NCBI RefSeq assembly: GCF_019449565.1
Contig: NZ_JAGRPM010000019.1
Span: forward strand, 12,838 to 76,837
Reading direction: 5' to 3'
DNA: 64,000 nt
Source of the DNA: Rhodoblastus sp.
GTDB taxonomy: Bacteria; Pseudomonadota; Alphaproteobacteria; Rhizobiales; Beijerinckiaceae
This document shows positions 22,834 to 36,405 of this stretch, piece after piece. Under the pieces are notes generated by a model. It was not told where the DNA came from, did no database searches, and worked only from the letters and a program-made list of their open reading frames with translations. Numbering within the stretch: the stretch's first letter is position 1; every line of letters begins with the position of its first letter. Made by a program: the position numbers and the translations under genes.

Positions 22834-22955
22834 ATGCGCAAACTCGATCTCGGCAAGGTCTATCAGAAGCTCGAACCCGGGCCTGTCGTTCTGCTGACGA
22901 CGGCGGAGAATGGCCGCGCCAATGTGATGACGATGTCCTGGCACATGATGGTCGA
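22834..22955 (+). pseudogene. Flavin reductase family gene, 5' part (interrupted by the integrated element)
   Basis: MRKLDLGKVYQKLEPGPVVLLTT..NVMTMSWHMMVE; continues in frame at 36406. Confidence 0.85.
22942..22955 (+). repeat. Left attachment site (core TGGTCGA)
   Basis: CACATGATGGTCGA vs CACATATTGGTCGA at 36392-36405; the 7-bp identical core fits a tyrosine-recombinase overlap. Confidence 0.8.
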
Positions 22956-23180
22956 ATACGGATTTATTGGCTGATAAGTCTGTGATAACAATAGGATGGT
23001 GGGGTGGCCGGATAGTGGCGGAACACGGGGGGACGTGGGTAAAGCGAGGCATGAAAAATATTTCTTGGCACTGCCTTGCTCGGGGCCGTGGTGGCCATCG
23101 CCACGGGAAAAAACCGACCATAGTAAGGGCGTGATTTTTGAGTCATCTATCGGCTATCGATCTACGAAAGGATAAAGCTG

Positions 23181-23345
23181 ATGAAGACCCTTCTGCTGTG
23201 CAAGGCCACCATATCCGTGATGGCGCTGACGGTCCTTCTTGGGCTGCCGGAGGAATCGACGCCCGCGCAGGTCGCAACAGCCTTCGCCCAGTGGCTGGAG
23301 GACACCGGCGGTGAGCTGGTAGACGTTCAGCTCAAACGCCCATGA
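23181..23345 (+). CDS. Small hypothetical protein, 54 aa (below the ORF-track cutoff)
   Basis: AAAGGA RBS then MKTLLLCKATISVMALTVLLGLPEESTPAQVATAFAQWLEDTGGELVDVQLKRP. Confidence 0.4.
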   Translation: MKTLLLCKATISVMALTVLLGLPEESTPAQVATAFAQWLEDTGGELVDVQLKRP

Positions 23346-23673
23346 CGGTAATGAATTTTTGCCGGAGCTCTGAATATGGGGTGCGGCTTCCACACGACTG
23401 ACAAACATGACGCGGTCTTACACGCAACGTGCCCCGCTCCGGAATGCTCTCGTGGACCAGAATTATTTCCGGCAAGTCGTAGTCGTAAGCGCCCGAGATT
23501 TTCGCACAAATTAGACACGTCGCCGTCGCGCTGTCGAGGACGGCCCGACAGATGGCAAGATCCACATCATTGCGGTCCCGCCGAGCCATGGCTGTCGGAA
23601 CATCGATTAGCCTAATAGAGGTGGGGCGGGTGCGGTCCTTGGCGGCGGCTGGGGGCTTGGGCTTGGTGGTCAT
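23332..23673 (-). CDS. Hypothetical protein with two CxxC motifs (possible Zn finger)
   Basis: CLIC...CQSC; start overlaps the upstream stop (ATGA). Confidence 0.55.
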   Translation of the reverse strand: MTTKPKPPAAAKDRTRPTSIRLIDVPTAMARRDRNDVDLAICRAVLDSATATCLICAKISGAYDYDLPEIILVHESIPERGTLRVRPRHVCQSCGSRTPYSELRQKFITVMGV

Positions 23674-24188
23674 GCCGTCACCATGGTCAGCCGCCGCTCT
23701 TGGCGAAGGGCTTCAAGGCGACGCGCTACCCGCTCGTCAAAGGCGATCTTGGCCAGTCGCCGGTTTTCGGCGCGCTCGAGCTTCATGCGCTCGGTGTCCT
23801 CTGCCAGTAGCAGCGCCTTGGCCGCGCGCTTTGCCGCCAGCTTGTCCATGCGCCGGGTCAGACGTTCTTCCCTGAGCTGCTGCTCCGCCCGGACTCGGTC
23901 GGCTTCAAGTTGGGCTTCAAGCTGGACCTGACGTTCGGCGTCCATGCGGGCGGCTTCAAGGACGTGCTGCTCCCGCTGGAAGTTGGCATAGGCGATGGCA
24001 TGGGCGGTGACAGACCGCTCGTAAGCGCGCAGGACCATGACACACTCAACCTCCCAATGGTTCGCCGCCACGCCGTCGCCGTTGGCATAGGCTAACGCCC
24101 TTTGCCGTTGGGCGTCGCGCAACTGGATGCGAAGACGGTCCTTGGTGATGAAGGCGTGCAGGAGGTCAAGGCGTGTTTTTTCAAGCAT
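23670..24188 (-). CDS. Hypothetical coiled-coil protein
   Basis: 172 aa, E/R/A/L-rich helical composition, coupled to the next gene. Confidence 0.6.
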   Translation of the reverse strand: MLEKTRLDLLHAFITKDRLRIQLRDAQRQRALAYANGDGVAANHWEVECVMVLRAYERSVTAHAIAYANFQREQHVLEAARMDAERQVQLEAQLEADRVRAEQQLREERLTRRMDKLAAKRAAKALLLAEDTERMKLERAENRRLAKIAFDERVARRLEALRQERRLTMVTA

Positions 24189-24206
24189 GATGTGGTTGTC
24201 CAGGGT

Positions 24207-24557
24207 CTACGGCACGCGCCAAACCGGCGTGGCGCTGTTGGGACTGCGGGCGTCGGTGTGGAAGGGTGGCGTTGGTGGAGTGCCTGCGTCCCAGACCGGC
24301 AACGCGGCGGAATCGTGTGACTGGTCGCTTCCCGCAGCCGTGGCCAAGTCCGCCACGACTCTGACCGGACATGCGCCGCCATCATCCGCTTGCGAATTTG
24401 GCCAAGGGCCACCCCCCGGCTGGGGCACGAAATAGACCGGCTTCGCCGATTGAGCGTCCGTCTGCGAACTGGGCGGCTGACCTGTCCACGTTGGGCGTGG
24501 GACGATGCAAACCGGAATGGCCCCCGCTTCCAAATTCTGTTTGTTGGGATAGCTCAT
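24207..24557 (-). CDS. Protein built of five ~24-aa repeats
   Basis: A-x-P-V at residues 13, 38, 62, 85 and 109; start coupled to the upstream stop. Confidence 0.65.
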   Translation of the reverse strand: MSYPNKQNLEAGAIPVCIVPRPTWTGQPPSSQTDAQSAKPVYFVPQPGGGPWPNSQADDGGACPVRVVADLATAAGSDQSHDSAALPVWDAGTPPTPPFHTDARSPNSATPVWRVP

Positions 24558-24880
24558 CAGCTAAGACCTTTCGGTGTCCGTACCCATTGAGCGTAGGTGG
24601 CGGACAAGGAGCTTTCGCCAGCATCCACGGGGGCATCCATGGCGTCCACGACACCCGCCGTAGGATTGCACCGGGCGGGCGTGGTGGGCGGGGCCGTTGG
24701 CGTGGGCGGGTCCATACCGGGCGGAGGCGGCGGGGCCTGTGTGGCGTCCCCTGCGCTCTGGTCGAAGCTGTATCGGGGCGCCGGTGGCGTAACTGGAGCT
24801 AAGTGACCGAACGCCCTTGCAGCCATGTCCACGATCCGGCGGGCGAGGGGGACGTGACGGCGGGCAAGCTGATGGAGCAT
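24557..24880 (-). CDS. Proline-rich hypothetical protein
   Basis: 107 aa; TGATG-type overlap with the next gene. Confidence 0.45.
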   Translation of the reverse strand: MLHQLARRHVPLARRIVDMAARAFGHLAPVTPPAPRYSFDQSAGDATQAPPPPPGMDPPTPTAPPTTPARCNPTAGVVDAMDAPVDAGESSLSATYAQWVRTPKGLS

Positions 24881-25105
24881 GGCAGGCCTCGTGGAAGGTG
24901 GAGCCGCCCAACGCGGAGACGATGACGTCAGGCGGCCCCGTGCCCGCTCGAATACTCTTGATGCCGCTCAGAGAGTATCGACGTGCGGGAACTCAAATGG
25001 TTGGGGCGGCAACGCATAAGGGACATCGCCGCCCCGGTCCTCACCCCCGGCCAAGGGGCTAGGCTCTGGCCACGTAACCGAGCAGGAGCGTGGCCAGAAT
25101 TCAGT

Positions 25106-25684
25106 TCAGACCCACAGCGACCGCGACCGCTCAACAATCTGAGACGGGGTCAACATGCGGACGTGCTTCGCTGGCAATGTGAAGTCGCGGACGAAACTTT
25201 GGCGCGAGAAGAACTGATTTTCTTTGTGCCCAGAGACGGGATCGACCACGCGCCGCATGACCATCTCACCGTCTGGCACGGCATCGTTTGATACAGCAAA
25301 CCTCGAGACTTCATCGAATAATTGAGCCTCTAGGTTTGTGAAGGCCGCGTTCTTCGGCAGGGCGGCGAAATCCACCCGCTTCAGCTCAGACGAGTTTGGG
25401 AGACGCTGCTGCAACTCGCTCGCAATCCTCGAGCGGTACGAGAATTCATCTTCACCCGGCAATGCCCTTGGCGCTGCTCGATTGAATAAACTGAGCACTT
25501 CGTCGCACCTCGACTGAGCCTGCCTACAGGCGCTGTCCGCCCGTTTTTGGCTTTCCTCCCGCTCAGCAATTTGCCGGCGACGAAGGTTCTCCCGCGCGGT
25601 GGCGTCTTCAGCTTCAATCTTGTCCATGGCTTTATCGATGCTGTTTAGCTTGGACATGACGCGGTCTAGCATTGTGGACATCAT
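25106..25684 (-). CDS. Putative head scaffold-like protein (resembles the C-terminal part of DUF2213-type phage proteins)
   Basis: GGAG RBS; N-terminal coiled coil, then AQSRCDEV...APRALPGEDEFSYRSR...VDFAAL...EAQLF. Similarity is recalled, not searched. Confidence 0.55.
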   Translation of the reverse strand: MMSTMLDRVMSKLNSIDKAMDKIEAEDATARENLRRRQIAEREESQKRADSACRQAQSRCDEVLSLFNRAAPRALPGEDEFSYRSRIASELQQRLPNSSELKRVDFAALPKNAAFTNLEAQLFDEVSRFAVSNDAVPDGEMVMRRVVDPVSGHKENQFFSRQSFVRDFTLPAKHVRMLTPSQIVERSRSLWV

Positions 25685-25883
25685 TGGTCTCCTTTATTTG
25701 ACGACGAGTTCGGGTATGGAGCACCGGCCCCCGGCGGTGTGGACATGGGGACGTTCCCCGGAGTGTCGTCGCCACGGCCATTGCTGGGACTCGACCCCGC
25801 ACCGGGTGAGCGTGGTTTGGTAGCACCCGGCGAGGGCTTGCTGTGAATCGTGCTGCTGCGGCTGCGAACGGTCTTCATGGCAG

Positions 25884-26240
25884 TCAAGCTCCAGCCGCCG
25901 CCCGGTGACGGGGGCGGTCCAAGGTGGGAATGGGGTTGATGGGTAACGCCCGGTCGAAGTCCCGGAGGCTGCTGGCGTACACCTGAGCCTGTTGTGGCAA
26001 CACGGCCGCCGCGTTGTCTGGCATCAGAAAATGGAGCCGAGTCTCGGGTTGGATTTCGTTTTCAATGAGCAAGGCCGTCGCGGCGTCCCGGATCGGGCTT
26101 GGCGTGTCGGTAATGACGACCACACCACACAGGCGACTGACGGCGTACAAACCGCCGGGGAGGGCGGAGACGCGGAGTCGCAGGGGGGAGGGACCAACAG
26201 CCATAGCTCTGCACACGCAAAAAAGAGACTTTGCGGGCAA
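25884..26240 (-). CDS. Hypothetical protein
   Basis: 118-aa ORF co-oriented with the element; no motif recognised. Confidence 0.3.
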   Translation of the reverse strand: MPAKSLFCVCRAMAVGPSPLRLRVSALPGGLYAVSRLCGVVVITDTPSPIRDAATALLIENEIQPETRLHFLMPDNAAAVLPQQAQVYASSLRDFDRALPINPIPTLDRPRHRAAAGA

Positions 26241-26703
26241 GACGGATGTGTAGTTGGTGGATAAGTGAGGTAGATGGTAGTATTGAGGCCCTGCCCGGGA
26301 TAAAAACAGCTTACGGCGTTTTTTGGGGTTTGGGTACTGTTATTGCATATCACTCGGTAATTACTTGTATCGTGGTTTTTACCAGTCCCAGACCAGCACC
26401 TTTTCCCGCGCGGCTGTTCCATGTCCTCGACCAAGTCCATAACTCTGTTTTAGTTATGAGTATATCTTGGAAGTGAGTTCATAACATCTTGGTGCAGGCA
26501 ACCGGTTTGATCAGATGAAGGCGGTCGAGCCCCAACGCCGCGCCGATGAACGCCTTGGCCACGCTATCCATGTGTGGTGGTGCAACCACACATGCGGCCC
26601 ATAACAGTCTAATACGGTTCCAGAGGTGTTATATCATTGATATACCGAGCTTTTTTCTCGACCATGACCATCAGCGGATGCGATGCGGATGAGTTGGCGG
26701 GGG

Positions 26704-27321
26704 TTATTCCGCAGCCTCGCTGGACTGCTGGTTGCCCTCAAACACGCGAACAGCCGACACCAACGCCCCGTGATAGCGTGCCAACCTGAATCCGTTCGTG
26801 ACGTGGTTAAAATGGTCATAGGCCAGCTTGGCCAAGGCGTGATCATCGGCCGTGAGATTCTGGTCGTACTGGGCCTTCCAAAGGGCGGTGCGAACGATGT
26901 TGGTGCTGGCCGTGGGGAACTGCTCGACAATGGCCAACACCAACCGCAGGGCCGTGATCGTTGGTTCTTTGGTCAGCGTGTCCCGGACAAGGTCCATGAT
27001 TTCGGTGTTGAACCTTAAATGGTTGGGGAACTTGCCCCGGTGGACGGGCGGCAACTCGACCATAAGGTCGCCGGTGATCTCGTCAAGGACAACAGGCTTC
27101 CAACCCGAGGAACTCGGCGGCGTTGGCGCGGCCATGGCGGCTTTGGCGAATTTTGCGCGGGTGTCCGGGGTGGCGTTCTTCCAAGCGGTGACGAGCGCCA
27201 CGAGATCGGGGGACGGCTTCACCGGTTCCGCCAATTTGCTGGACATGGACGTGTCCAGCTTGGTGGCCGGTTTGGTGGCCGAAGAAGTCGTGGAGTTTTT
27301 GAGGTCCATGTGCTTGGTCAT
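26704..27321 (-). CDS. Hypothetical protein
   Basis: AAGGAA RBS; 205 aa with a low-complexity N-terminus and a helical C-terminus. Confidence 0.6.
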   Translation of the reverse strand: MTKHMDLKNSTTSSATKPATKLDTSMSSKLAEPVKPSPDLVALVTAWKNATPDTRAKFAKAAMAAPTPPSSSGWKPVVLDEITGDLMVELPPVHRGKFPNHLRFNTEIMDLVRDTLTKEPTITALRLVLAIVEQFPTASTNIVRTALWKAQYDQNLTADDHALAKLAYDHFNHVTNGFRLARYHGALVSAVRVFEGNQQSSEAAE

Positions 27322-27661
27322 TCAGGTATTCCTTTTCCGTGTTGTTAAAGACGTGTTGGGTGTCGGACGTGTAGGGAGCGCCGTGGGCTGGTTTGGGGAG
27401 CCGTTGGGGCGGGGTAGTACCGGACAGGGTGGACATCCCAGCCCACACCCTCCGGTGCTGGCCGGTGCCCCCGCCGGTGCCCCGGCAACTGCCCCGCGGC
27501 GGCGTGGAGTTGGTGGGTTACGGGCTGGGGGGCAGAACTGGCAACATCCTCTACGGGCTGGGGGGATAGAACCACGCCCCTTGCAGCTTCCTCGGTCCTG
27601 GATCACTTCCTCCAAGGATCCACGTGAGTAAATAAAATACGGGCAGGGGGGACAGGGCGGT

Positions 27662-27733: not shown

Positions 27734-27803
27734 GTAACCGGCCGCCCCTACAGCCTTGAATGTTGGTATGAGGCCTTTGTTACCGGCCCCATACCGTTTG
27801 ACC

Positions 27804-29057
27804 TCAGAACGGCAGCAGTTCATCCCCGCCCATCCAGACCAGCACCGGCCGGCTGTTGTCGCCCCTCAGCACACCAATCTTACGCTTCTCCTCCGCATCA
27901 GCGAGGCTGCGGCTGAACGCAACCTTGCGTGACTCAGCCGAGATATCCTGCCGCTTCCCGTAGAACGCTGCACGCAGCCGCTCGGCATCGTGCGCCATCA
28001 CTTCCACAGTCCCGACCTTGTGGGGCTGCCCACCTCCCCCCGCCTCGATCTCCTTCATGCACTCGACAACGATGTCCATGTTGAAATTGGTGGACGGCTC
28101 CTTGGTCTTGGTGGCCTTGCTCTTGGGCGAGCGGTCTTCCGCCTCCTCGCCGACATAAGCCCCCTTCCACTCGACAATGGCGGGAGAGCCCTCCGACTCG
28201 GCGGTCAGGTCAAACTTGACAGGCGGCAGGGGATCGCCAGCCCTGAACTTTTCAAACACGACACGCCGGTTGCTGTGAACCATCGTTGCAATATCAATGT
28301 CGGTCCGCACGCTCAGAATGGCATCATAGGCCGCCGTCTTAGCCGATGATCCACGCGCCCCCTTCGTCTGGTCCTTACCCAGATGGTCAACGACCAAAAA
28401 CAAGACTTGGTGCTCATGCGCCAGCCGGGCCAGCATGGCCAGAACCCGGTCCACCTCGCCCGCTTCATTCTCATTGCTGAACATGGCCCCGCGCGTCAGG
28501 GTGTCCACAACGACCATGCGCAGGTCACCGCCACCATGCTCGGCCACCTGTTCCTTATAGCGAACGATCAGAGTTCCCAGCCATTCCTCAGCGTTTTCGT
28601 CCGTTAGCGCAATGCGGGTGCGGGTCGGGCGGCCGAAGGGAACCTTACTCAGGTCTGTTTCCCCGTACTTACGCCGCAAGGTCTCGGCCGCCCGTGGTGC
28701 CACCGATGGCGCACCTTCATAGGCCAACCAAAGAACCGCACCCGGAGCCAGCACCTTACGCCCGGCAAACTCGCCGCCTTTGACTACAGCGAGGGCCGCG
28801 TCATTGACCGCGTAGCTCTTTCCCGCATAGGCCAAGCCCAGAACGGTGGCCACGCCGACCAGCGGCAGCATGCCTTCAACCAATTGAGGCTCGGGTGTCG
28901 GCTCCTCGTCCCCGAGCCACGTAATGCCGTAATCAGCTTCCTCGATCACCGACCGCACTTGGACAGAGGTAGTGCTCCGCCGCCTGCTAAAGGCGTCGTC
29001 CTCCATCAGTTTTTCCGCCCGCTGTTCGTCCCAAAAGTTGTCTGAATGATTATTCAT
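27804..29057 (-). CDS. AAA_25 / RepA-like replicative helicase
   Basis: LVEGMLP, Walker A GLAYAGKS, LAYEG, Walker B MVVVDTL, VVDHLGKD...RGSSA. Confidence 0.88.
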   Translation of the reverse strand: MNNHSDNFWDEQRAEKLMEDDAFSRRRSTTSVQVRSVIEEADYGITWLGDEEPTPEPQLVEGMLPLVGVATVLGLAYAGKSYAVNDAALAVVKGGEFAGRKVLAPGAVLWLAYEGAPSVAPRAAETLRRKYGETDLSKVPFGRPTRTRIALTDENAEEWLGTLIVRYKEQVAEHGGGDLRMVVVDTLTRGAMFSNENEAGEVDRVLAMLARLAHEHQVLFLVVDHLGKDQTKGARGSSAKTAAYDAILSVRTDIDIATMVHSNRRVVFEKFRAGDPLPPVKFDLTAESEGSPAIVEWKGAYVGEEAEDRSPKSKATKTKEPSTNFNMDIVVECMKEIEAGGGGQPHKVGTVEVMAHDAERLRAAFYGKRQDISAESRKVAFSRSLADAEEKRKIGVLRGDNSRPVLVWMGGDELLPF

Positions 29058-29071
29058 TGCTCTGCTCCCAG

Positions 29072-30622
29072 TTAGCGCAGGTAAACTTCAACATCGACGC
29101 CTGCGCGCGCCCATTGGTGACAGGCAACGGAGGCCGCCCGCCTTTTGTCCTCACCGACAAGGAGCTTCACCTTGTGGAAGCCGGTGCCGATGAGGAGTGT
29201 TTCGATACCGTTGACGGCGACCACGACCGGCCCATGACCCGCCCGTTGCAGCCCGGTCACCAGCTTGTCTGTGACCACGAGGACGTCGCCCTCGCAGGCG
29301 TCGGTCAGCCAGATGCCGCCGCCATGGGCCGGGCCATGGGTCGTGATGGAGCCGTCCAAGCTGACCGACCAGACGCCACAAAAGCCATCCGTCACGCGAT
29401 GTAGGGCAGCCCAGACGGTGGGCCGGTCAGGGGTGAAGCGCAGGCGGGTCAGGGCCGCCGAGGGCAGGGCGTCGAGCTTGGCGTGCTGGAGCAGCCAGCG
29501 TTCCCCGTCCGTGTCGGCGATGGGCTGGGCGTTGTGCCACAAGGGCCGCACCAGATCGACCTTGGCGGCGTCCTCGGGCCGGGGGGCTGTGGCCACATCA
29601 AGGTTCTTGGAGCTCCACCCGTAATGTTCATTAGCGATGTGAAATATCGTCGCCAGTGTGTAGGTTTTACCGGATGTCCTGAGCCTGAACCCGCTGTAGG
29701 TCTTGACCGTATAGCGTGGGTCATTTCTGGTACATAGCGCCGACCAGCGATAAAAGAGGTCGCGGTAGGCCTCCGCTAAATCAAAAGCGTCGGCGCTGAC
29801 ATCCCCCGAGTCCTGCTCCTCACGATCCGGGCAGACGTTGCCATGTTTCAGGTTGTCAGCCTCGACGCCGGCGCGCTTCAAACCGGCGCAGACCTTCAAC
29901 CATGTGTAACGGTCAACTCCCTCGCCCCGGTTGTTGATGGCCATGACGGCACTGGCTACCTCAGCATAGGTCGGGGCAGAGCCTTGGGGCTGGGGTGGAG
30001 TCGGAGGGACGTAGGGCTGGCCGGACAGGTTCGGTCCCGCTACCCGGAGCAGCCATTCCAAATCCTCAGGCCGCAGGGGAGCAATAGCGTCGCCTTTGAT
30101 TGATTGGCCAGTGAACGCAAACCAGCCCTCAAACTTGAGCTCGATGGCCAGTGGATGGCGGCCCTTGCTTTGGACCTTGGTGAAGGTGCGGTTGTGGCAC
30201 TCTCCCCCCGACACCCGTTCAAGGTCTTCGACGTCCTGCTTTTTGATTAGGCAGTAGATCTTGAGGCCGGTTTGACTGGGGCTGATCTCGGTGTAGGAGT
30301 CGAGGCGATCAACGATGTCCTGTGCCCATGGTGTTAGCTCGCCGGTGTCCGTGTCGCGGCAGCTATCGAGGTCGACGCCAAAGATGGGGAAGGATTTCTG
30401 GCCAAGGATGAGAGCCAGGCCTTGGGTAGGGGAGGGTTGGCCAACAGCAGCGGCGGCGACGGCGTAGGGTTGCCACGGCTCGGCTCTTGTGTAGGACGCC
30501 CAACGCCGGGTGATTGGATCGCGCGGGGCGCCCTTGTTCCATGAACCGTCGTCGCGTTGTGTGGCCTGCCAGTAGGCCCAGACGGGGGCATCTCTAAGAA
30601 GTAATTTTGTTTGTGTATTCAT
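29072..30622 (-). CDS. Primase-polymerase (AEP-type) with PriCT-2 and an extra C-terminal domain
   Basis: GVDLDSCRD, WAQDIVDRLDSYTEISPSQTGL; PriCT-2-like YTWLKVCAGLK..FYRWS..TLATIFHIA. Confidence 0.82.
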   Translation of the reverse strand: MNTQTKLLLRDAPVWAYWQATQRDDGSWNKGAPRDPITRRWASYTRAEPWQPYAVAAAAVGQPSPTQGLALILGQKSFPIFGVDLDSCRDTDTGELTPWAQDIVDRLDSYTEISPSQTGLKIYCLIKKQDVEDLERVSGGECHNRTFTKVQSKGRHPLAIELKFEGWFAFTGQSIKGDAIAPLRPEDLEWLLRVAGPNLSGQPYVPPTPPQPQGSAPTYAEVASAVMAINNRGEGVDRYTWLKVCAGLKRAGVEADNLKHGNVCPDREEQDSGDVSADAFDLAEAYRDLFYRWSALCTRNDPRYTVKTYSGFRLRTSGKTYTLATIFHIANEHYGWSSKNLDVATAPRPEDAAKVDLVRPLWHNAQPIADTDGERWLLQHAKLDALPSAALTRLRFTPDRPTVWAALHRVTDGFCGVWSVSLDGSITTHGPAHGGGIWLTDACEGDVLVVTDKLVTGLQRAGHGPVVVAVNGIETLLIGTGFHKVKLLVGEDKRRAASVACHQWARAGVDVEVYLR

Positions 30623-30738
30623 CACCAACCGCCCAAGATTTTTTGGGGCGGGAAGGTCAAAGCAGCTTTACAAAGTCGGACAGGTGGGCTATACCTAGAT
30701 TGCTTTGCTACCCGCCTACCTGTTCAACCTGAACAAAG

Positions 30739-30769
30739 AACGCCTCCGCACCAACGGGGGCGTTTTTTT
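30739..30769 (+). terminator. Intrinsic terminator-like hairpin, possibly bidirectional
   Basis: AACGCCTCCG-CACCAA-CGGGGGCGTT followed by a T run. Confidence 0.55.
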
Positions 30770-30926
30770 GTGCTTTGCACATCACGCCACTATTGTAACC
30801 TGCCTCAGGCTAAGCTGCTTCCCGCGGTCCTGTAAAGGGATAAACGCCGAGGGAGCTATGCTATTACTGCCGGACAGCGCCTTTTACCTATGCAGCTCTT
30901 GCATGACAGCGCCTTTTACTTGGGGA

Positions 30927-31313
30927 TCAAAACGCGATCTCCCGGCCCCGCTGCCGTTCTGCTGCCACCATCTTCCGCAGCTCCAGCATGTGGGGGCCGG
31001 TGGCTACGCCCTCGCCATACTCGTGGAAGACCGTACCGGCCTCGTCAATAATTGCGCGCACTTCAGAGCCAGTGTAGTCGATGCGCTCCCAAGCTTCATG
31101 AATGGCCGGGACCAGCCATTCCCTGCTGCCGGTCTTAATGATCACCCAGATGCTGTCCCGGTGTGCGTAAAGGCCGAGGATGTTGCTACCTTCCACGCGG
31201 AGCTGGATCTCCACCAATGGCCGCCTTGCTTCAACAAAGCCCAGCAGCCGGTAAAGGTCGTTCACACAACAGCAGCACTCGTCACTGTTGGTCTGGTGGA
31301 CTACTGGGCGCAT
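30927..31313 (-). CDS. Hypothetical protein
   Basis: 128 aa, overlaps the stop of the upstream gene. Confidence 0.45.
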   Translation of the reverse strand: MRPVVHQTNSDECCCCVNDLYRLLGFVEARRPLVEIQLRVEGSNILGLYAHRDSIWVIIKTGSREWLVPAIHEAWERIDYTGSEVRAIIDEAGTVFHEYGEGVATGPHMLELRKMVAAERQRGREIAF

Positions 31314-31678: not shown

Positions 31679-31811
31679 TTTTGCCTCCTGTTTGACCTGA
31701 ATCCGGCGCTGGCGCATCCGCACCAAGTCCGCATTTTGGTAGTGCCCCCGACATCATGCTCTATGTCGTTGGAATCACGGTCTATTTTCCGGACGTATAC
31801 AGACTAGTCGA

Positions 31812-32051
31812 TTATGTGCCGGTCTTTGCGACGGCCTCGGCATAGGAGGAGAAGGTCAAAGCTTCTTCAAAAGCCTCGACATCCTTCACGCGGTAGAAAT
31901 AGGAACGAGGACCGATACGTAAAAATTTGGGACCGGTCCCGCTGCACCGCAAGGAGGAGATGTGGTTGATTGACCGGCCCCAACGCTTGGCGAGGTCAGC
32001 AGTGGTGAGTAGATCGGCGGCGGGGGTGCGGTTGTTGCTTGGAGTGTTCAT
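31812..32051 (-). CDS. AlpA/Xis-like helix-turn-helix regulator
   Basis: LLTTADLAKRWGRS...GTGPKFLRIG...YRVKDVEAF. Confidence 0.88.
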   Translation of the reverse strand: MNTPSNNRTPAADLLTTADLAKRWGRSINHISSLRCSGTGPKFLRIGPRSYFYRVKDVEAFEEALTFSSYAEAVAKTGT

Positions 32052-32202
32052 GTGGTTTACCTACTAGTTCCAAAGGATATTGGAGGGTAAACCGTGTTCG
32101 TGGGCAATGTCCAGTGTTATTTGTGTACAAAGCCCTTTACAAGCTTGTATAACGGACTTTACAACTACAGGCAATCAATAATAGTGAGTATAGAAAACAG
32201 GC

Positions 32203-32418
32203 TTACTCGACGGCATGGGGTAGTTGGACGCCAGACAAGGCCATCGTGTAGCTGTTGACCGCTGCCTGTAGCTCTTGTCTACGCCGCAACAAGACCTTTG
32301 AGCTGCATTTACCGGCGTAATGATCCCGCTCCGCCTTGGTGGCGCGGGCGCGGCAAGCATTGAGGTTGTCACGGGTCTTCTGTACTTGGACAGGGTTAGA
32401 CATGGTGATCTCCGTCAA
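32203..32418 (-). CDS. Hypothetical protein coupled to terL
   Basis: Start overlaps the terL stop; 71 aa helical. Confidence 0.5.
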   Translation of the reverse strand: MTEITMSNPVQVQKTRDNLNACRARATKAERDHYAGKCSSKVLLRRRQELQAAVNSYTMALSGVQLPHAVE

Positions 32419-34037
32419 TTCTGGTCGTAGGCCAAGAGGATGCCGTACACCCCCGCGTCCAGCAAATCATCGGCACGCCGGTAGGCTTGCTTGTCCCCGA
32501 CCCTGAAGCTGCCGAACTGCGCCAGCAAATGGTTGCGGACGACGCCCTTCAACTTGAGAGTCTTGTTGAATGCGTGGTCGGTAATCTTGACCTGCCCCTC
32601 GTTGACCAAGGGTTCCGCTGCCAATGCGCGGAGGTCTTTACCACGGGCCACAAGATGGCTCGGGATGGGCTGGCAAATGTGCGGGAACTTCGCCAGCAAC
32701 ATCTCTCCCAACGCCACGCCCTCGATGTAGATGCCTTGCTCGTTCAACCGGACCTTGTCCCCGGTGAGCTCTTGCAGGCGTGCCTCGCACGTCAACAACC
32801 ATTGCTCAACGTCAGCAGCTCCAACTTCTACGGCATCCCAATCGAGTATGAAAAGGCCACGGGGCTCAAGGTGGACGTTGAGGCCGAAGAAGACGCAGGC
32901 CGCCGCATCGTTTTCACTACCGCCCTTCACGGCCGAGTCGATCACGGCAAAGGCGATGTCAAAGGTCTTTGGGACCGGCGGGGCAACACCGTCAACTAGC
33001 AGCTTGGTGATGCTGAACAGGGCGAGGCCACTGAGGTCCACGAACTCAGCAAGGAACTCCTGCCTGAAAATTAGCGGGTGATGGACACGCGAAAGCCTGT
33101 CCAATTCCTTGGCCGGCAAAAAGGGATTTTTTGAGCTGGGGGCATGGAACTGCGTAAATCCAAGCTCGGTCTGGTGGCATATCTTATAAAAAAAATTGGA
33201 CTCGTCGATGCCGTTTGGCGTTGAAGCCACGACAACATCACCGGCGAAATCAGAATAATCGAGTGTAGTTGCCAATATACTCGCGTCGTAAATGTCGCTC
33301 AGGTCCGGGCCACCAAACGCGGCCTCGTCAATTAGAACGCGATGGTACTTGCGGGACCGGCCAGCTCGTTCATGCTCAAGGGACCAGCATTCAATAGACC
33401 CGCCTCCGGGCAAGGAGAGGTACCCGGCGCTCTTGTTGGACGTGTCCGCGACACCGCCCAGAACCATGTCAAGGGCCATGAAGGTCGGGGCACTGAGTTT
33501 GTAGGTGGGAGCAAAGATTCCACAGGCCCGACCAAGCAAAGCATCATCGATGGCGAGGGCCGTTATGAGAGCGGTCTTGCCAAACCGGCGACCACAGCGC
33601 AACGCCGTGAAGCGTCCGGATTGGATGGTGGCCAAGGCGTCAATCTGGCCTTGGTGCAAGGGGCCGTCTGGCAGGCGCAGCACACTATTAGGCAACCCTA
33701 CAGCTTGCAGGGCTTGCGCTGGGTGGCCTTCGTCGGCGTGGGTGGTGGTGGCGTCCCCGGCAGCAGGCCGGAGGCCGCCCACGACCAGCCTCTGGGCGCC
33801 GTGGACCATGGCGTCATTGTGGGCGCGCTGGGTGAAGTCCGTATAGAGTTCGCCCTGACCCTGGATGGTGGTAGAGACGATCCGGCCCTTGGCATCGGTC
33901 GCGCGAGCAAAGTCGGCACGCTGGCCGGTGAGAAAGTCCACGGCGGCGAAGGTGCGCAGGGCCGGCGCGCTCCGGGTGGCCAAGGCCGTGCTGAGCATGG
34001 ACTGGACTAGGCGGCTGGCCGTGGCGAGGTTGCTCAT
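32415..34037 (-). CDS. terL: Terminase large subunit
   Basis: Walker A CGRRFGKT, Walker B VLIDEAA, coupling STPNG, FRQEFLAEF, nuclease IDSAVKGG..ND and DDLLD. Confidence 0.93.
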   Translation of the reverse strand: MSNLATASRLVQSMLSTALATRSAPALRTFAAVDFLTGQRADFARATDAKGRIVSTTIQGQGELYTDFTQRAHNDAMVHGAQRLVVGGLRPAAGDATTTHADEGHPAQALQAVGLPNSVLRLPDGPLHQGQIDALATIQSGRFTALRCGRRFGKTALITALAIDDALLGRACGIFAPTYKLSAPTFMALDMVLGGVADTSNKSAGYLSLPGGGSIECWSLEHERAGRSRKYHRVLIDEAAFGGPDLSDIYDASILATTLDYSDFAGDVVVASTPNGIDESNFFYKICHQTELGFTQFHAPSSKNPFLPAKELDRLSRVHHPLIFRQEFLAEFVDLSGLALFSITKLLVDGVAPPVPKTFDIAFAVIDSAVKGGSENDAAACVFFGLNVHLEPRGLFILDWDAVEVGAADVEQWLLTCEARLQELTGDKVRLNEQGIYIEGVALGEMLLAKFPHICQPIPSHLVARGKDLRALAAEPLVNEGQVKITDHAFNKTLKLKGVVRNHLLAQFGSFRVGDKQAYRRADDLLDAGVYGILLAYDQN

Positions 34038-34519
34038 TGATCGCCGCTTAGCAGAGCTTGCAGCTTGGCGATATTTCCTTCCAGCTGAACACCAACGAGC
34101 AGTTCGGTGAAGGCCTTTGCGCCGTCGATTAGGAATTTCGCGGCGTCGGTGTCGAGTTCCCCGGCAGTCGCCTTTTCCAGTACCTTTGAGACGAATTGTG
34201 ATGCGTCCGTCGCCGTCACCAGCTTGGGCAAGTCTGCACTCGGTTCAATGAAGCGCAGGGGCGGTTTCGGGCTGGGCTTCGATTCAAGGTAAGCGGTTGC
34301 GGCGCGCAAGCATGCAAGCTTCAGTTCGGGGTCAACTCCCTCGGCGTGGGCCATCTCCATCATTTCAATGGGGCCGCGTTTCCATCCACGCTTTTCGAAC
34401 TCGTCCAGCAGCTCTTGAGTGCGCTTGTTGGGGGTTCCTTTTGCTCGCCCCATCCCAACATTCTGCAAGGTTTCGGGATGCCCCCTACTCTTCGCTACCT
34501 TTGGGGATTCTTTGGTCAT
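34034..34519 (-). CDS. terS: Terminase small subunit-like protein
   Basis: GRAKGTPNK motif; lies directly upstream of terL with an ATGA overlap. Confidence 0.7.
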   Translation of the reverse strand: MTKESPKVAKSRGHPETLQNVGMGRAKGTPNKRTQELLDEFEKRGWKRGPIEMMEMAHAEGVDPELKLACLRAATAYLESKPSPKPPLRFIEPSADLPKLVTATDASQFVSKVLEKATAGELDTDAAKFLIDGAKAFTELLVGVQLEGNIAKLQALLSGDQ

Positions 34520-34593
34520 CAGAATAGTTCTCAGTAGTTGCTTATCCGACGCAAACAATACCCTATTGGCGGTATCTCAGCAACTATTGTGTA

Positions 34594-34779
34594 TTATTCA
34601 GGACGCCGGAACAACACAACATTATCCCTCAATACTGGCTCTATCCTTGATCGTGGTCTAAGAGCCAAGGCCACACGGCAAACCACCACGACCAGCCTAC
34701 ACACCGCCCAGCCCGAGGCCATGACAAGAACATAGGCCAGCCAGCCGAGGACCAGCATCACCATGGCCAAGCTCAGCAT
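34594..34779 (-). CDS. Small membrane protein (~61 aa)
   Basis: MLSLAMVMLVLGWLAYVLVMASGWAVCRLVVVVCRVALAL; overlaps the upstream stop. Confidence 0.45.
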   Translation of the reverse strand: MLSLAMVMLVLGWLAYVLVMASGWAVCRLVVVVCRVALALRPRSRIEPVLRDNVVLFRRPE

Positions 34780-34985
34780 TTGGGGGCTTCCCGCGCCGCC
34801 TCGGGCCAGCCATAAATGATGGTGTCGATCTTGATGGAGCGGGCTTCCAGCGCCGCCAAAGCCGCTCTCTTGTGCTCCGGCGTGCGACACACCATCGCAA
34901 TCAGCTTGGTGTAAAACGGCACCATGCTCTCCAACAGCTTGGGCGGCCCATCCGCGATAGTGAATATCGTGAAGTCCTCGTTCAT
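34773..34985 (-). CDS. Small hypothetical protein directly after the integrase
   Basis: ATG 3 nt after the integrase stop; 70 aa. Confidence 0.45.
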   Translation of the reverse strand: MNEDFTIFTIADGPPKLLESMVPFYTKLIAMVCRTPEHKRAALAALEARSIKIDTIIYGWPEAAREAPKC

Positions 34986-34988
34986 GCC

Positions 34989-36230
34989 TCAGCCCTGCTT
35001 CTTCATCGGGATTACGTTGGCGGTGTCGACCTTACCCTCGGCGAGGAACTGCCCCCACATCCTCAAGGCCTCGGCGCGCTTCTCGGCGAAATCGTGCTGC
35101 TGGTAGATGAGTGCGACCGAGGACAGCGACGACGACTTATGGGCCAAAAGCTTGTCAGCCACGTCCACGCCGACACCCTTCTTCGCCAGCCAAGTGACCC
35201 CCGACCTGCGGAAATCATGATAGGTCCACGGCTTCATCACAGGGCCGCCGTCCCGTACCAGCGCCTCATCGAGCGCCACCTTGATCCTCTGCATCCCGCC
35301 CATCACCCTTAGGCCGTCCGTGGTGAAGACGATGTCGCTCGTGTCATGCCGTGGCAGGGTGGCCAGCACGTCCTTGGCCGGGGGTGCAAGATCCACCCGA
35401 TGCGGCTTGGCCTGCTTCATCCGTGCGCCGGGAATGTGCCAGACGTCCCCGGTGATCTCCGCCCAACGCAAACCGAGGGCCTCGGTGCGGCGAACCAGTG
35501 TGAGCATCAGGAAGCGGACATAGGCCGCGCGCAATGGGGACAGGGTACCAGCCGCCGCCCAAACACGGTGCAACTCCTCCTCCGTCAGGGACCGGTCGCG
35601 GGCTGCACCGGCCGGGGGCAGTTTCAGCCGGTCGTCCAGTTGGTTCACGTCAATATGGCCCTCGCTGTAAGCCCAGCGAAACACCGCCTTGATTCTTACG
35701 GCCGCCGCGTGCATCGCGATGGGGCCGCTGTTGGCGCGCACAAGATCCAGGGCCTTGGACACATCTTTGACCTGAATGGCGGCAACCGGCTTGGCCAGCA
35801 GCCCAGCGAAACCGCGCGTCAAGGACGAGAGGGTAACCTTGAGCGAGTTGGGGCGGCATTTGGGGGCCATGGCCTTCTCCCAATCGCCCAGCAGGACCGC
35901 GAGGGTGAAGGCGTCGGCCTCCCGGCGCTGACGGAGAATGGCCTTGTCCTCCTCGCGTTTGGCGAACGGGTCCAAGGTCGTGACCATGGCGGCCGATTCC
36001 AGCTTGGCCAAGTTGCGAGCCTGCATCACCGTCAGGTTGCCGAACCGGCCGAGCGCCTTGCGGAAGCTGCGCCCGTCCTTGGTGCGGCTCTGGAATAGGA
36101 AGGTCTTGCGCCCCGACGACGAAACGCGGACGCCCAGCGAGGGCGTTTCGGTGTCAAACACAAGGTAGTCCTTGCGGGAAGGCTCAGGTTTCAAGCCGTT
36201 GACAGAGGTGTCGGTGAATTTGATTGCCAT
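34989..36230 (-). CDS. int: Tyrosine integrase with arm-DNA-binding (DUF4102-type) N-domain
   Basis: FTD..V..LKP..DTETPSLGVRV..SGRKTF; catalytic R (LVRRTE), HDFRR, LLAH and Y (IYQQH). Confidence 0.95.
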   Translation of the reverse strand: MAIKFTDTSVNGLKPEPSRKDYLVFDTETPSLGVRVSSSGRKTFLFQSRTKDGRSFRKALGRFGNLTVMQARNLAKLESAAMVTTLDPFAKREEDKAILRQRREADAFTLAVLLGDWEKAMAPKCRPNSLKVTLSSLTRGFAGLLAKPVAAIQVKDVSKALDLVRANSGPIAMHAAAVRIKAVFRWAYSEGHIDVNQLDDRLKLPPAGAARDRSLTEEELHRVWAAAGTLSPLRAAYVRFLMLTLVRRTEALGLRWAEITGDVWHIPGARMKQAKPHRVDLAPPAKDVLATLPRHDTSDIVFTTDGLRVMGGMQRIKVALDEALVRDGGPVMKPWTYHDFRRSGVTWLAKKGVGVDVADKLLAHKSSSLSSVALIYQQHDFAEKRAEALRMWGQFLAEGKVDTANVIPMKKQG

Positions 36231-36351
36231 GATTTTTGCGGACCTTTTGCGGACGCGACCCGGATGGTGTTAGGTGCGTTTCTTGGCCCTTATATGCGAT
36301 CCGGCTAATCAGTCGTCAAGGCCGCAGCCCTTGTAAACCAAGGCATTCAGA

Positions 36352-36380
36352 GGTTAGCGGGTGTTAGCGGGTGTTAGTTG
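36352..36380 (+). repeat. Tandem 10-bp repeats next to the right att site (putative integrase arm sites)
   Basis: GTTAGCGGGT GTTAGCGGGT GTTAGTTG; a further GTGTTAG near 36267. Confidence 0.6.
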
Positions 36381-36391
36381 TAAAGGTCCGT

Positions 36392-36405
36392 CACATATTG
36401 GTCGA
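36392..36405 (+). repeat. Right attachment site (core TGGTCGA)
   Basis: Matches 22942-22955. Confidence 0.8.

What the first reader, a model, noticed from the sequence alone, without database searches (positions are those of the whole stretch)
22949..36405. Candidate new phage-satellite type: PICI-like island with its own TerS+TerL but no portal, capsid or tail
Seen: an intact-looking 13.45-kb element with both att cores, an intact integrase, AlpA-like HTH, prim-pol, helicase, terS and terL. No ORF resembles a portal, major capsid, protease or tail. Established: Gram-negative PICIs carry TerS only; cf-PICIs carry TerS/TerL plus portal, protease and capsid; P4-like elements use Sid/Psu and no terminase; PICMIs have no packaging genes. 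Inference: this element brings a complete packaging nuclease/ATPase and borrows helper procapsids and tails, a combination outside those definitions.
Basis: partly seen in the sequence, partly recalled or inferred. Interest (0 to 1): 0.92.

Follow-up and report, generated by a model that had tools for sequence, protein, structure and literature searches.

The report
Capsid-less island with its own terminase
A 13.45-kb mobile island, inserted in a flavin-reductase gene of an uncultured freshwater-sediment bacterium whose nearest relatives are alphaproteobacterial, carries both subunits of a phage DNA-packaging enzyme but no portal, capsid or tail genes; it belongs to a distinct, conserved clade of such islands that are most likely phage parasites bringing their own packaging motor, an arrangement I found described nowhere.

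Summary
A 13,450-bp element lies between two imperfect cores (CACATgaTGGTCGA / CACATatTGGTCGA) and splits a Flavin_Reduct gene cleanly. On the minus strand it encodes a P4-type tyrosine integrase, a TerS-like protein coupled by a 4-nt overlap to an intact 540-aa TerL, an AlpA-like HTH, a prim-pol, an AAA_25 RecA-like ATPase with iterons downstream, and a 192-aa copy of the C-terminal domain of a phage head-morphogenesis protein. No portal, capsid, MuF or tail gene or remnant was found in any frame.

The TerL belongs to a monophyletic clade (bootstrap 200/200) marked by a unique ~126-aa N-terminal domain. None of its 11 examined contexts, the window included, has portal or capsid genes, against 120 of 169 related phage TerL loci that have a portal directly downstream. 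TerL dN/dS in the clade is 0.15-0.22.

Best reading: a PICI-like phage satellite that packages itself with its own terminase into helper procapsids. This is a new variant of a known kind. Mobilisation is untested, the contig is metagenomic, and about 27% of the island has no confident gene.

The parts
22942..22955 (+). attL core CACATGATGGTCGA (perfect part TGGTCGA at 22949-22955)
36392..36405 (+). attR core CACATATTGGTCGA (perfect part TGGTCGA at 36399-36405)
22834..22974 (+). 5' fragment of the interrupted flavin-reductase gene; reads into the island and stops after 6 foreign codons
   Evidence: Pfam Flavin_Reduct positions 5-31; the joined protein gives a contiguous match
36371..36814 (+). 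3' fragment of the flavin-reductase gene; its first codons, with a GTG, are supplied by the island end
   Evidence: Pfam Flavin_Reduct positions 30-140, 1.3e-20
34989..36230 (-). P4-type tyrosine integrase, 413 aa
   Evidence: Pfam Phage_integrase, Arm-DNA-bind_3 and Phage_int_M; phrog_1 at 1.8e-49. 37% identical to the integrase next to TerS-TerL in L076
34773..34985 (-). 70-aa ORF of unknown function; starts 4 nt after the int stop; GC3 0.80
34522..34599 (.). 21-nt inverted repeat around the terS start; candidate operator or pac-region element (inference)
34034..34558 (-). TerS-like protein (ORF 174 aa; likely start ATG 34519, giving 161 aa). Its stop overlaps the TerL start by 4 nt
   Evidence: Same family as the small proteins directly upstream of TerL in all relatives (phmmer 1.2e-5 to the L078 148-aa protein; alignment A3). 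6 of 8 family members hit phrog_641 'terminase small subunit'. 46% identical to P0122, which sits in the terS position of a Rhodoblastus PICI-like element
32415..34037 (-). Terminase large subunit, 540 aa: clade-specific N-terminal domain (residues ~1-126), ATPase and RNase-H-like nuclease
32203..32402 (-). 66-aa ORF directly after terL, with a GGAG ribosome-binding site; function unknown; not similar to the 125-154-aa 'X' gene of relatives
32124..32164 (.). Two 19-nt direct repeats upstream of alpA; candidate operator (inference)
31812..32051 (-). AlpA-like HTH regulator/excisionase, 79 aa
   Evidence: HTH_17 at 1.8e-5; phrog_66 at 4.6e-5. 50% identical to the alpA-position gene of L164
31301..31726 (-). 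141-aa ORF, unknown
   Evidence: no family hit
30927..31313 (-). 128-aa ORF, unknown
   Evidence: no family hit
30856..30919 (.). Two tandem 32-nt direct repeats
30735..30768 (.). Strong hairpin terminator (14-bp stem, T-run on the + strand and A-run before the stem) separating the regulatory and replication units
29072..30628 (-). Primase-polymerase-like replication protein, 518 aa
   Evidence: phrog_13901 at 6.6e-16; phrog_1829, phrog_15962 and phrog_3022; PriCT_2 weak
27804..29057 (-). AAA_25 RecA/DnaB-like ATPase, 417 aa; putative replicative helicase
   Evidence: Pfam AAA_25 at 2.8e-26; phrog_906 and phrog_3228
27519..27651 (.). Three copies of TACGGGC(T/A)GGGGGG in the 480-bp gap downstream of the ATPase gene; candidate ori iterons (inference)
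26704..27321 (-). 205-aa ORF, unknown; good codon signal
25688..26703 (.). About 1 kb without a confident gene
25106..25684 (-). 192-aa stand-alone homologue of the C-terminal ~155 residues of the NUDIX+DUF2213 head-morphogenesis protein (phrog_6216) of the phage lineage that also holds the nearest canonical TerLs
   Evidence: phrog_6216 at 1.2e-12. Lineage profile at 6.9e-32, positions 369-524 of 526. In 12 phage or prophage loci the matching gene lies about 2.2-2.8 kb (in most) downstream of the TerL stop, after portal and MuF
24189..25105 (.). About 0.9 kb, proline/GC-rich, with no codon-position signal; probably non-coding or decayed
23670..24188 (-). 172-aa charged, coiled-coil-like ORF, unknown
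23332..23673 (-). 113-aa ORF with two CxxC pairs, unknown
23181..23345 (+). 54-aa ORF with an N-terminal hydrophobic stretch, unknown

Best explanation
This is an integrated, PICI-like phage satellite of an uncultured bacterium from freshwater sediment; its relatives point to Alphaproteobacteria. Its hijacking module is a complete terminase rather than a TerS alone.

Shown by sequence:
- A P4-type tyrosine integrase inserted the 13.45-kb element into a flavin-reductase gene.
- The element has its own replication set: prim-pol, an AAA_25 ATPase and iterons downstream.
- It has an AlpA-like regulator.
- It has a translationally coupled TerS-like/TerL pair, with TerL ATPase and nuclease motifs intact.
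- It has a stand-alone copy of the C-terminal domain of a phage head-morphogenesis protein (p192).
- It has no portal, capsid, MuF or tail gene.

Inferred mechanism:
1. On infection or induction of a helper phage, the element excises and replicates. The helper would come from the lineage with Phage_portal_3, MuF, NUDIX-DUF2213 and DUF2184-type capsid genes and roughly 44-47-kb genomes.
2. Its TerS recognises a pac site on the element.
3. Its own TerL cuts the DNA, docks on the helper's portal and fills helper procapsids by the headful.
4. p192 binds the helper capsid protein or competes with the helper's protease/scaffold protein. It thereby either shifts capsid size or interferes with helper head maturation. 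The element is about 0.3 of a helper genome, the ratio seen for satellites that make small capsids.
5. Helper head-completion and tail proteins finish the particle.

The N-terminal domain unique to this TerL clade is proposed, without direct evidence, to adapt the motor to its own TerS or to a foreign portal.
For: - Clean insertion with att cores and a split target gene.
- All PICI core functions are present.
- TerL is genuine by sequence, profile and fold.
- TerS-TerL coupling by a 4-nt overlap is conserved in every relative.
- The TerL clade is monophyletic (200/200) and deep: 47-52% identity to the window, and at most 117 clusters at 50% identity that carry the N-terminal domain (E <= 0.001; 61 at E <= 1e-10), many of them short fragments.
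- It is under purifying selection: omega 0.15-0.22 overall, 0.2-0.46 in the N-terminal domain.
- It is portal- and capsid-less in 11 of 11 contexts, the window included, against 120 of 169 with a portal outside the clade.
- Two independent genes, the TerL core and p192, point to the same phage lineage.
- Element size is 13.45 kb against 43.8-47.5 kb for the related phages. This is the one-third ratio noted for satellites (PMC9618062).
- The closest homologue of the window's TerS sits in the terS position of a classical alpA/prim-pol element without TerL.
- There are no defence-system hits.
- The clade is absent from the 80 best IMG/VR matches, as expected for elements without structural genes.
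Against: - There is no experimental or read-level evidence of excision, circles or packaging. The only run holding the sequence is kept as contigs, with flat 12x depth and no joint.
- No helper prophage lies in the window.
- About 27% of the island has no confident gene, which is low density for an active satellite and may mean partial decay.
- The window's own TerS candidate is assigned only through its family.
- p192's function is unknown. A nested-scaffold origin is not supported: only 4 of 96 phage genes have an internal ATG with a Shine-Dalgarno motif.
- Some relatives are 4.7-kb int-TerS-TerL-X units with no replication genes. These fit a classical satellite life cycle poorly.
- A TerL working on a foreign portal has no precedent that I could find.
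Confidence: 0.6

Rival explanations
1. Composite or tandem array. A minimal int-TerS-TerL unit (right part, about 32.2-36.4 kb), like those in L075 and L076, sits next to an integrase-less AlpA/prim-pol PICI-like element (left part). The 13.45 kb would then not be one co-evolved element.
For: - Int-TerS-TerL-X units of about 4.7 kb exist on their own and carry a homologous integrase, 33-37% identical.
- An alpA/prim-pol/TerS element without TerL exists in Rhodoblastus.
- terS-terL lies next to int and upstream of alpA, which is not the usual PICI order.
- A 2.6-kb TerS-TerL-X cassette moves between contexts.
Against: - There is no internal copy of the att core with 1 mismatch or fewer.
- There is only one integrase and one pair of cores, and the target gene is restored exactly across the outer cores.
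- The window's TerS is closest to the Rhodoblastus PICI-type TerS, so the two 'halves' share ancestry.
- Modular origin is compatible with the element now behaving as one unit.
Confidence: 0.15
2. Fossil satellite. The element was once a terminase-bearing satellite but is no longer mobile. It persists as a genomic island with some genes decayed.
For: About 3.6 kb has no confident coding signal. The att copies differ at 2 of 14 positions. p174 has one close homologue in 5.8 billion proteins, and p192 has none besides itself.
Against: The integrase, TerS-like gene, TerL, prim-pol and AAA_25 gene are all full-length without stops. TerL keeps every clade-invariant residue. Imperfect cores are common for tyrosine integrases.
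Confidence: 0.12
3. The TerS-TerL pair works mainly as phage interference or defence, or in some other DNA transaction, rather than for the element's own transfer. It might sabotage packaging of an infecting phage or drive lateral transduction of flanking genes.
For: The minimal relatives lack replication genes and are too small for one headful. Satellites are known to interfere with helper packaging (PMC11417361, listed). The cassette occurs in several chromosomal contexts, in L074 with no integrase called in the flank held.
Against: No PADLOC model matches any island protein. Here the pair is embedded in a full integration, regulation and replication backbone. Interference and self-transfer are not exclusive in known satellites.
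Confidence: 0.1
4. Deleted prophage. This is an ordinary temperate phage that lost its structural genes in this lineage.
For: TerS and TerL are phage genes. The island has gene-poor stretches.
Against: - The TerL clade is monophyletic, old and uniformly portal-less, and is under purifying selection.
- No remnant of portal, MuF or capsid lies in any frame.
- The backbone is of PICI type (alpA, prim-pol), not a phage early region.
- There are no lysis or tail remnants.
Confidence: 0.03

Closest known systems
Classical Gram-negative PICIs (EcCICFT073-type; SatelliteFinder 'PICI' model)
   Same: Both have an integrase at one end, an AlpA-type regulator, a primase-replicase module, a small-terminase-like gene and a capsid-interacting gene. 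Both are about 10-15 kb and have no tail, lysis, portal or capsid genes.
   Different: This element carries a full TerL, which classical PICIs lack (PMC13612085, PMC10085698). terS-terL sits beside int rather than at the far end. It integrates into a protein-coding gene. Its proteins do not reach the known family profiles, apart from int.
Capsid-forming PICIs (cf-PICIs)
   Same: Both encode TerS and TerL on a PICI backbone.
   Different: cf-PICIs also encode the major capsid protein, protease, portal, head-tail connector and adaptor (and HNH), and they steal only tails. None of these genes is present here or in any clade member examined.
SaPIs of Staphylococcus aureus (TerS plus CpmA/CpmB)
   Same: Both redirect packaging with a satellite-encoded terminase component. 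In both, a small satellite protein resembles the C-terminal capsid-binding part of a helper head protein; this role is proposed for p192.
   Different: SaPIs use the helper's TerL. CpmB is related to the scaffold C-terminus, whereas p192 is related to the C-terminal domain of a NUDIX-DUF2213 protein. The hosts are different phyla.
P4-like satellites
   Same: Both have a P4-type integrase, a primase-type replication protein, a size about one third of the helper's, and dependence on helper heads and tails.
   Different: P4 uses cos sites with the P2 terminase and the external scaffold Sid and Psu. No Sid, Psu or delta homologues are present here, and P4 has no terminase genes.
PICMIs and VEIMEs (marine minimalist satellites)
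   Same: The 4.7-kb int-TerS-TerL-X relatives recall minimalist islands that would have to be packaged as concatemers. Some VEIMEs carry TerS.
   Different: PICMIs have no packaging genes. VEIMEs are reported with TerS and 'motor-like ATPases', not a TerL (PMC9618062, PMC10803314). The window element has its own replication module.
Canonical TerL of Sf6-TerS-type temperate phages (Yersinia phage vB_YenM_29.18, Pantoea phage PdC23, Klebsiella phage Chronis)
   Same: 39-40% identity over residues 127-537, the same fold and the same catalytic motifs.
   Different: The phage proteins are about 425-440 aa, lack the N-terminal domain and are followed directly by the portal gene.

Membership tests
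Terminase large subunit (TerL) | N-terminal ASCE ATPase with Walker A, Walker B and C-motif | tested here: met
   GRRFGKT (149-155), IDEAAF (D237, E238) and STP (272-274) are invariant in 29 clade sequences. The profile hits the T4 gp17 ATPase at 2.2e-9.
Terminase large subunit (TerL) | C-terminal RNase-H-like nuclease with conserved acidic residues | tested here: met
   D367, E439, D523, D524 and D527 are invariant. Terminase_6C is weak and phrog_38 scores 2.3e-9. Foldseek gives full-length matches to the D6E (TMt 0.66), T4, HK97 and Sf6 TerLs.
Terminase large subunit (TerL) | Gene adjacent to a portal gene, as in tailed phages | tested here: not met
   0 of 7 distinct clade loci with DNA have a portal downstream, and neither do 4 further annotated contexts. 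Outside the clade the figure is 120 of 169.
PICI (classical) | Site-specific integrase and flanking att repeats | tested here: met
PICI (classical) | AlpA, MerR or Stl-type master regulator | tested here: inconclusive
   HTH_17 scores 25.3 bits, below the 27-bit cut-off. phrog_66 scores 4.6e-5. The position and a 50%-identical homologue in L164 fit.
PICI (classical) | Primase-replicase module with an adjacent origin | tested here: met
   Prim-pol PHROGs at 1e-12 to 1e-16 and AAA_25 at 2.8e-26. Three iterons lie downstream; their role as an origin is inferred.
PICI (classical) | Small terminase subunit that redirects packaging | tested here: inconclusive
   There is no direct family hit. Six of 8 members of its family hit phrog_641. 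The position and the 4-nt overlap with TerL are conserved.
PICI (classical) | No TerL and no other phage morphogenesis or packaging-enzyme genes | tested here: not met
   An intact TerL is present. Classical PICIs lack TerL (PMC13612085).
PICI (classical) | Helper-phage-induced excision, replication and high-frequency transfer | not testable with these tools
   The contig is metagenomic. The only run is kept as contigs and shows no joint.
cf-PICI | TerS and TerL | tested here: met
cf-PICI | Major capsid protein and prohead protease | tested here: not met
   There is no Pfam or PHROG hit. Lineage capsid and protease profiles find nothing in six frames except the protease protein's non-catalytic C-terminal domain.
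cf-PICI | Portal, head-tail connector and adaptor | tested here: not met
   There is no hit, and no unassigned ORF exceeds 205 aa.
P4-like satellites | Sid, Psu, Delta, Ash/epsilon and alpha primase-helicase; cos site used by the helper terminase | tested here: not met
   No island protein hit a PHROG annotated with any of these functions. The element has its own terminase instead.
PICMI | About 5-6 kb, with no replication, capsid-remodelling or packaging genes | tested here: not met
   The element is 13.45 kb and has replication and packaging genes.
Known anti-phage defence systems (PADLOC) | A match to any defence-system protein model | tested here: not met
   Ten island proteins gave 0 hits.

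The most novel reading that the evidence does not exclude
Soil and freshwater Alphaproteobacteria may harbour an unrecognised class of integrative elements that carry a complete terminase (TerS+TerL) but no portal, capsid or tail.

The class would comprise at least two independently derived, robustly monophyletic TerL clades:
- the N-terminally extended clade of this window, associated with tyrosine integrases;
- a ParB-methylase/DUF5681/TerL clade associated with large serine recombinases.

They range from 13-kb replicative satellites down to 4.7-kb int-TerS-TerL units. They would be the first satellites shown to bring the packaging motor itself and to dock it on a foreign portal. The minimal forms may act by in-situ packaging (lateral transduction) or by exploiting small-headed particles such as gene transfer agents.
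Probability: 0.4. Interest if true: 0.85.

Novelty: new variant of a known kind. Interest (0 to 1): 0.74.

Why it matters
Known satellites sit at two levels of dependence. Some take the helper's whole head and its TerL (P4, PICI, PLE, PICMI). Others build their own head and take only tails (cf-PICI, the Streptomyces satellites).

An element that supplies only the packaging enzyme fills the gap between the two. It implies that a TerL can be selected to work on another genome's portal. That bears on how terminase-portal specificity evolves, and on how packaging could be re-targeted in laboratory phage systems.

The clade-specific N-terminal domain of TerL is a concrete handle for testing this. 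The finding also extends satellites into soil and sediment Alphaproteobacteria. In this sample the clade did not appear among the best 80 IMG/VR matches, and NCBIfam and Pfam give the window's TerL no name.

Tried and rejected
- tRNA target: none in the window or in seven related loci.
- Rfam scan of the island: nothing.
- Excised or empty-site forms: the single run that holds the sequence is kept as contigs and shows no joint.
- Targeted scan for the N-terminal extension in metagenome contigs: the alignment was too variable. The full-length scans of GTDB genomes, JGI metagenome contigs and IMG/VR returned only canonical or G2 TerLs, not the extended clade. Clade contexts therefore came only from exact-protein look-ups, all 12 of which were used.
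- att repeats for the 4.7-kb relatives: none convincing.
- N-terminal domain of TerL: the model is confident for residues 28-88, but Foldseek finds no PDB match (best E 0.5). No homologue occurs as a separate gene in the 245 loci then held.
- p192 as a nested scaffold, like lambda Nu3 or Mu Z: not supported, 4 of 96.
- TerS-like family against PDB: nothing. It is not detectably related to DUF5681.
- p205: no PDB sequence match. p205, p172, p141, p128 and p113: no Pfam or PHROG family hit (weak sub-threshold only for p141 and p113), no PADLOC hit, and no NCBIfam hit for p205 and p172, the two of them tested there.
- p192 and p174: essentially orphans in the 5.8-billion-protein search.
- Plasmid collection: no related element.
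- Internal att copy that would show a tandem array: none.
- SatelliteFinder and HHpred could not be run.

Full report
**1. The observation**

The window is chromosomal DNA at about 63% GC. It comes from a freshwater-sediment metagenome: one public run holds it, as contigs.

The pattern CACATNNTGGTCGA occurs without mismatch only at 22942-22955 and 36392-36405. The repeat alone is short, and the copies differ at 2 of 14 positions.

The decisive evidence is the target gene. The ORF ending at 22974 matches Pfam Flavin_Reduct positions 5-31, and the ORF at 36371-36814 matches positions 30-140. The protein obtained by joining the two across the core gives one uninterrupted match, 5-140 of 153, E 2.5e-30. 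So the element is a precise insertion into a protein-coding gene. There is no tRNA in the window. Island GC is 59.8% against 62.7% elsewhere.

**2. Gene content**

All confident genes but one lie on the minus strand. From attR to attL they are:
- a 413-aa P4-type tyrosine integrase (Arm-DNA-bind_3, Phage_int_M, Phage_integrase; phrog_1 at 1.8e-49);
- a 70-aa ORF;
- a 174-aa ORF (p174) whose stop overlaps the next start by 4 nt;
- a 540-aa TerL (phrog_2 at 2.9e-25);
- a 66-aa ORF;
- a 79-aa HTH_17/AlpA-like protein;
- two unknown ORFs of 141 and 128 aa;
- a strong hairpin terminator;
- a 518-aa prim-pol-like protein (primase PHROGs at 1e-12 to 1e-16);
- a 417-aa AAA_25 ATPase (2.8e-26);
- a 480-bp gap with three copies of a 14-nt repeat, as expected of an origin beside a satellite replication gene;
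- unknown ORFs of 205, 172 and 113 aa;
- a 192-aa ORF (p192) that matches phrog_6216

.

About 27% of the island, mainly 24189-25105 and 25688-26703, has no codon-position signal and no convincing ORF. PADLOC and NCBIfam name nothing except the integrase. Rfam finds nothing.

**3. Is TerL real and intact?**

Yes.
- A profile of the clade hits the ATPase domains of T4 gp17 (2.2e-9), P74-26 TerL and herpesvirus pUL15.
- The AlphaFold2 model has mean pLDDT 84 and pTM 0.73.
- Foldseek matches full-length T4 gp17 (1e-17), D6E TerL (TM 0.66 on the target), HK97 TerL and Sf6 gp2.
- Walker A (GRRFGKT), Walker B (IDEAAF), the STP coupling motif and the nuclease acidic residues (D367, E439, D523, D524, D527) are invariant across 29 clade sequences, the window's included.

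**4. The relatives**

The protein search separates two sets.
- About 45 metagenomic proteins of 515-552 aa cover the whole query at 40-52% identity.
- Hundreds of proteins of about 425-440 aa match only residues ~127-537 at 39-46%. These include named TerLs of 44-48-kb phages: Yersinia phage vB_YenM_29.18, Pantoea phage PdC23 and Klebsiella phage Chronis.

In the second set the gene order is Sf6-type TerS, TerL, portal (PF06381), MuF-like protein, a 526-aa NUDIX+DUF2213 protein (phrog_6216), phrog_6268, and a DUF2184-type major capsid protein.

In the first set I could read ten contexts.
- L075 and L076/L077: integrase, a 175-179-aa protein, TerL and a 125-150-aa protein, then ordinary cell genes. 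The unit is about 4.7 kb.
- L078/L079: integrase, several small genes, Prim-Pol, a DNA methylase, more small genes, a 148-aa protein and TerL, then copCD.
- L080 and the P0002, P0029 and P0037 contigs: DNA_pol_A, MT-A70 or other methylases, small proteins and TerL. All but L080, a contig end with IS110 elements, also carry an integrase.
- L082, L074 and the P0056 contig are similar.

None has a gene with a portal, capsid, protease or tail domain. TerL lies at or near the element's end in most of them, followed within about 1 kb by an integrase, a resolvase, cell genes or IS elements.

To make this quantitative I built profiles for the portal, MuF, phrog_6216, phrog_6268 and capsid proteins from the phage loci. 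The portal profile finds a gene within 3 kb downstream of TerL in 120 of 169 loci outside the clade, and in 0 of 7 distinct loci of the extended clade, the window included (Fisher p = 2.5e-4). The same profiles, run at maximum sensitivity on all six frames of the island, find nothing (E > 0.07) except p192.

**5. Phylogeny and selection**

In a neighbour-joining tree of 131 non-redundant TerL cores, the extended clade is monophyletic in 200 of 200 bootstraps and branches outside the phage TerLs sampled. Among four members 82-86% identical, dN/dS is 0.15-0.22 for the whole gene and 0.21-0.46 for the N-terminal extension.

A profile of the extension alone, searched against 1.84 billion representative proteins, finds 117 clusters. 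In nearly all of them the domain is at the N-terminus, and the full-length ones are 532-562 aa. It is not found as a separate gene in any of the 245 loci then held.

In the model, residues 28-88 form a confident beta-beta-beta-alpha-beta unit joined to the ATPase by a disordered linker. Foldseek finds no solved relative.

The conclusion is that this is an old, diverse TerL lineage under selection that lives in portal-less integrative elements. It is not a recent deletion derivative.

**6. The TerS call**

The window's p174 matches no family by itself. It does belong to the family of small proteins that directly precede TerL in every clade locus.
- phmmer gives 1.2e-5 to the L078 protein.
- Alignment A3 shows shared GRxKG, P(L/I)E..M and Y motifs.
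- Six of eight members hit phrog_641 'terminase small subunit', best 3.9e-6.
- The 4-nt overlap with TerL is conserved.

Its only close homologue in 5.8 billion proteins is P0122 (46% identity, Rhodoblastus sp.). P0122 lies in an element with an AlpA homologue (50% identical to the window's) and a Prim-Pol/DUF3987 protein, and with no TerL. That is the terS position of a classical PICI. I therefore accept 'TerS-like' with moderate confidence.

**7. p192**

The lineage profile of the NUDIX+DUF2213 head protein aligns p192 to positions 369-524 of 526 at 6.9e-32. In twelve phage or prophage loci the matching gene sits at the same place after portal and MuF.

The N-terminal two thirds of those phage proteins carry NUDIX and a region matching head-maturation-protease PHROGs. 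p192 lacks both. It is a stand-alone copy of the C-terminal domain. In head proteases and scaffolds this is usually the part that binds the capsid shell (general knowledge; not shown here).

A nested internal start in the phage genes is not conserved, 4 of 96. So I do not call p192 a scaffold; I call it a capsid-module mimic. The TerL core and p192 both trace to one phage lineage, and that lineage is the best clue to the helper.

**8. Mechanism and rivals**

The best-supported reading is a PICI-like satellite whose packaging module is a complete terminase (confidence 0.6). The steps shown and the steps inferred are separated in the 'best explanation' field.

Size agrees: 13.45 kb is 0.28-0.31 of the related phages' 43.8-47.5 kb. 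This is the ratio typical of satellites (PMC9618062).

Rivals:
- A composite of a minimal int-TerS-TerL unit with an integrase-less PICI-like element (0.15; no internal att).
- A fossil satellite (0.12; low coding density).
- A primarily interference or other role for the terminase (0.10; no PADLOC hit).
- A deleted prophage (0.03; contradicted by sections 4 and 5).

**9. Comparison with the known**

SatelliteFinder's definitions give PICI five core components, with TerS as the only terminase component. They give cf-PICI eleven, including terL, capsid, protease, portal, connector and adaptor (PMC10085698). A 2026 survey states again that classical PICIs lack TerL (PMC13612085).

The other classes also differ.
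- VEIMEs and tycheposons carry TerS or a capsid protein, not TerL.
- The Streptomyces satellites have full head modules.
- The mycobacterial EPIPs carry several head and tail-associated genes but no TerL.

Five full-text searches for a terminase-bearing, capsid-less satellite found none. That is absence in the held library, not proof of absence.

The element meets the PICI backbone features but fails 'no TerL'. It meets only the terminase features of cf-PICI. I therefore file it as a new variant of the satellite kind and not as a member of either family.

**10. Verdict**

The mechanism is inferred, and nothing is experimental. Interest is 0.74. A specialist would be surprised by a conserved clade of satellites that carry TerL without a portal. 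The clade-specific TerL domain makes the question of terminase-portal compatibility testable. The score is tempered by the metagenomic origin, the gene-poor quarter of the island and the lack of any mobility evidence.

Noticed in passing
L004, L006, L008, L013, L016, L019, L020, L022, L023, L026, L035, L044, L116, L147 and others (TerL at about 10001-11320 in most): A second, independent portal-less TerL clade (bootstrap 200/200; 21 of 21 loci with enough flank lack a portal) occurs in alphaproteobacterial genomes: Rhizomicrobium, Bradyrhizobium (including the complete chromosome NZ_CP188255.1), Reyranella, Methylocapsa and Methylocella. Its conserved cassette is a 257-aa unknown, a ParB_N+N6_N4 methylase, DUF5681 and a TerL of 451-469 aa. 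It is often followed by HTH, DUF3489, DUF2924 and a large serine recombinase. One MAG has four copies.
   Followed up: partly
L074 9439-11960; L076 9408-12321; L080 5542-8397; L082 9413-12007: Four loci with 82-86% identical TerL share only a 2.6-2.9-kb DNA segment, TerS-TerL-X, where X is a 125-154-aa gene overlapping the TerL 3' end. The flanks are unrelated, and the integrase lies on either side or was not seen in the flank held. Adenylate/guanylate-cyclase-TPR paralogues recur nearby.
   Followed up: partly
L164 5899-10869 (Rhodoblastus sp. contig): This classical-looking PICI-type element has an AlpA homologue (50% identical to the window's), a 900-aa Prim-Pol/DUF3987 protein and the only close homologue of the window's TerS-like protein (46% identical), followed by a 128-aa ORF. 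It has no TerL.
   Followed up: partly
window 24189-25105 and 25688-26703: Two stretches of about 1 kb inside the island have no codon-position GC signal and no credible ORF. The first is GC- and proline-codon-rich in all frames. They may be decayed genes, or regulatory or pac sequences.
   Followed up: partly
window 36371-36405: The island's right end supplies an in-frame GTG and 10 to 12 codons to the 3' fragment of the flavin-reductase gene. A truncated product lacking the first ~40 residues could still be made.
   Followed up: no
L083 12578-14209 (Yersinia phage vB_YenM_29.18, UNA05545.1): The protein is annotated 'glycosyl transferase'. Its homologue in L010, at the same place after portal and MuF, is the NUDIX + DUF2213/protease-like head protein of phrog_6216, so the annotation looks wrong.
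   Followed up: partly
L076 7335-9284; L075 7062-8816: The integrases next to the minimal TerS-TerL units are 584-649 aa. They carry a C-terminal extension of about 170-250 aa, of unknown function, beyond the catalytic domain.
   Followed up: no
window 30735-30768, 30856-30919, 32124-32164: A 14-bp-stem terminator lies between the regulatory and replication units. There are two tandem 32-nt repeats, and two 19-nt repeats upstream of alpA. All are candidate control sites.
   Followed up: no
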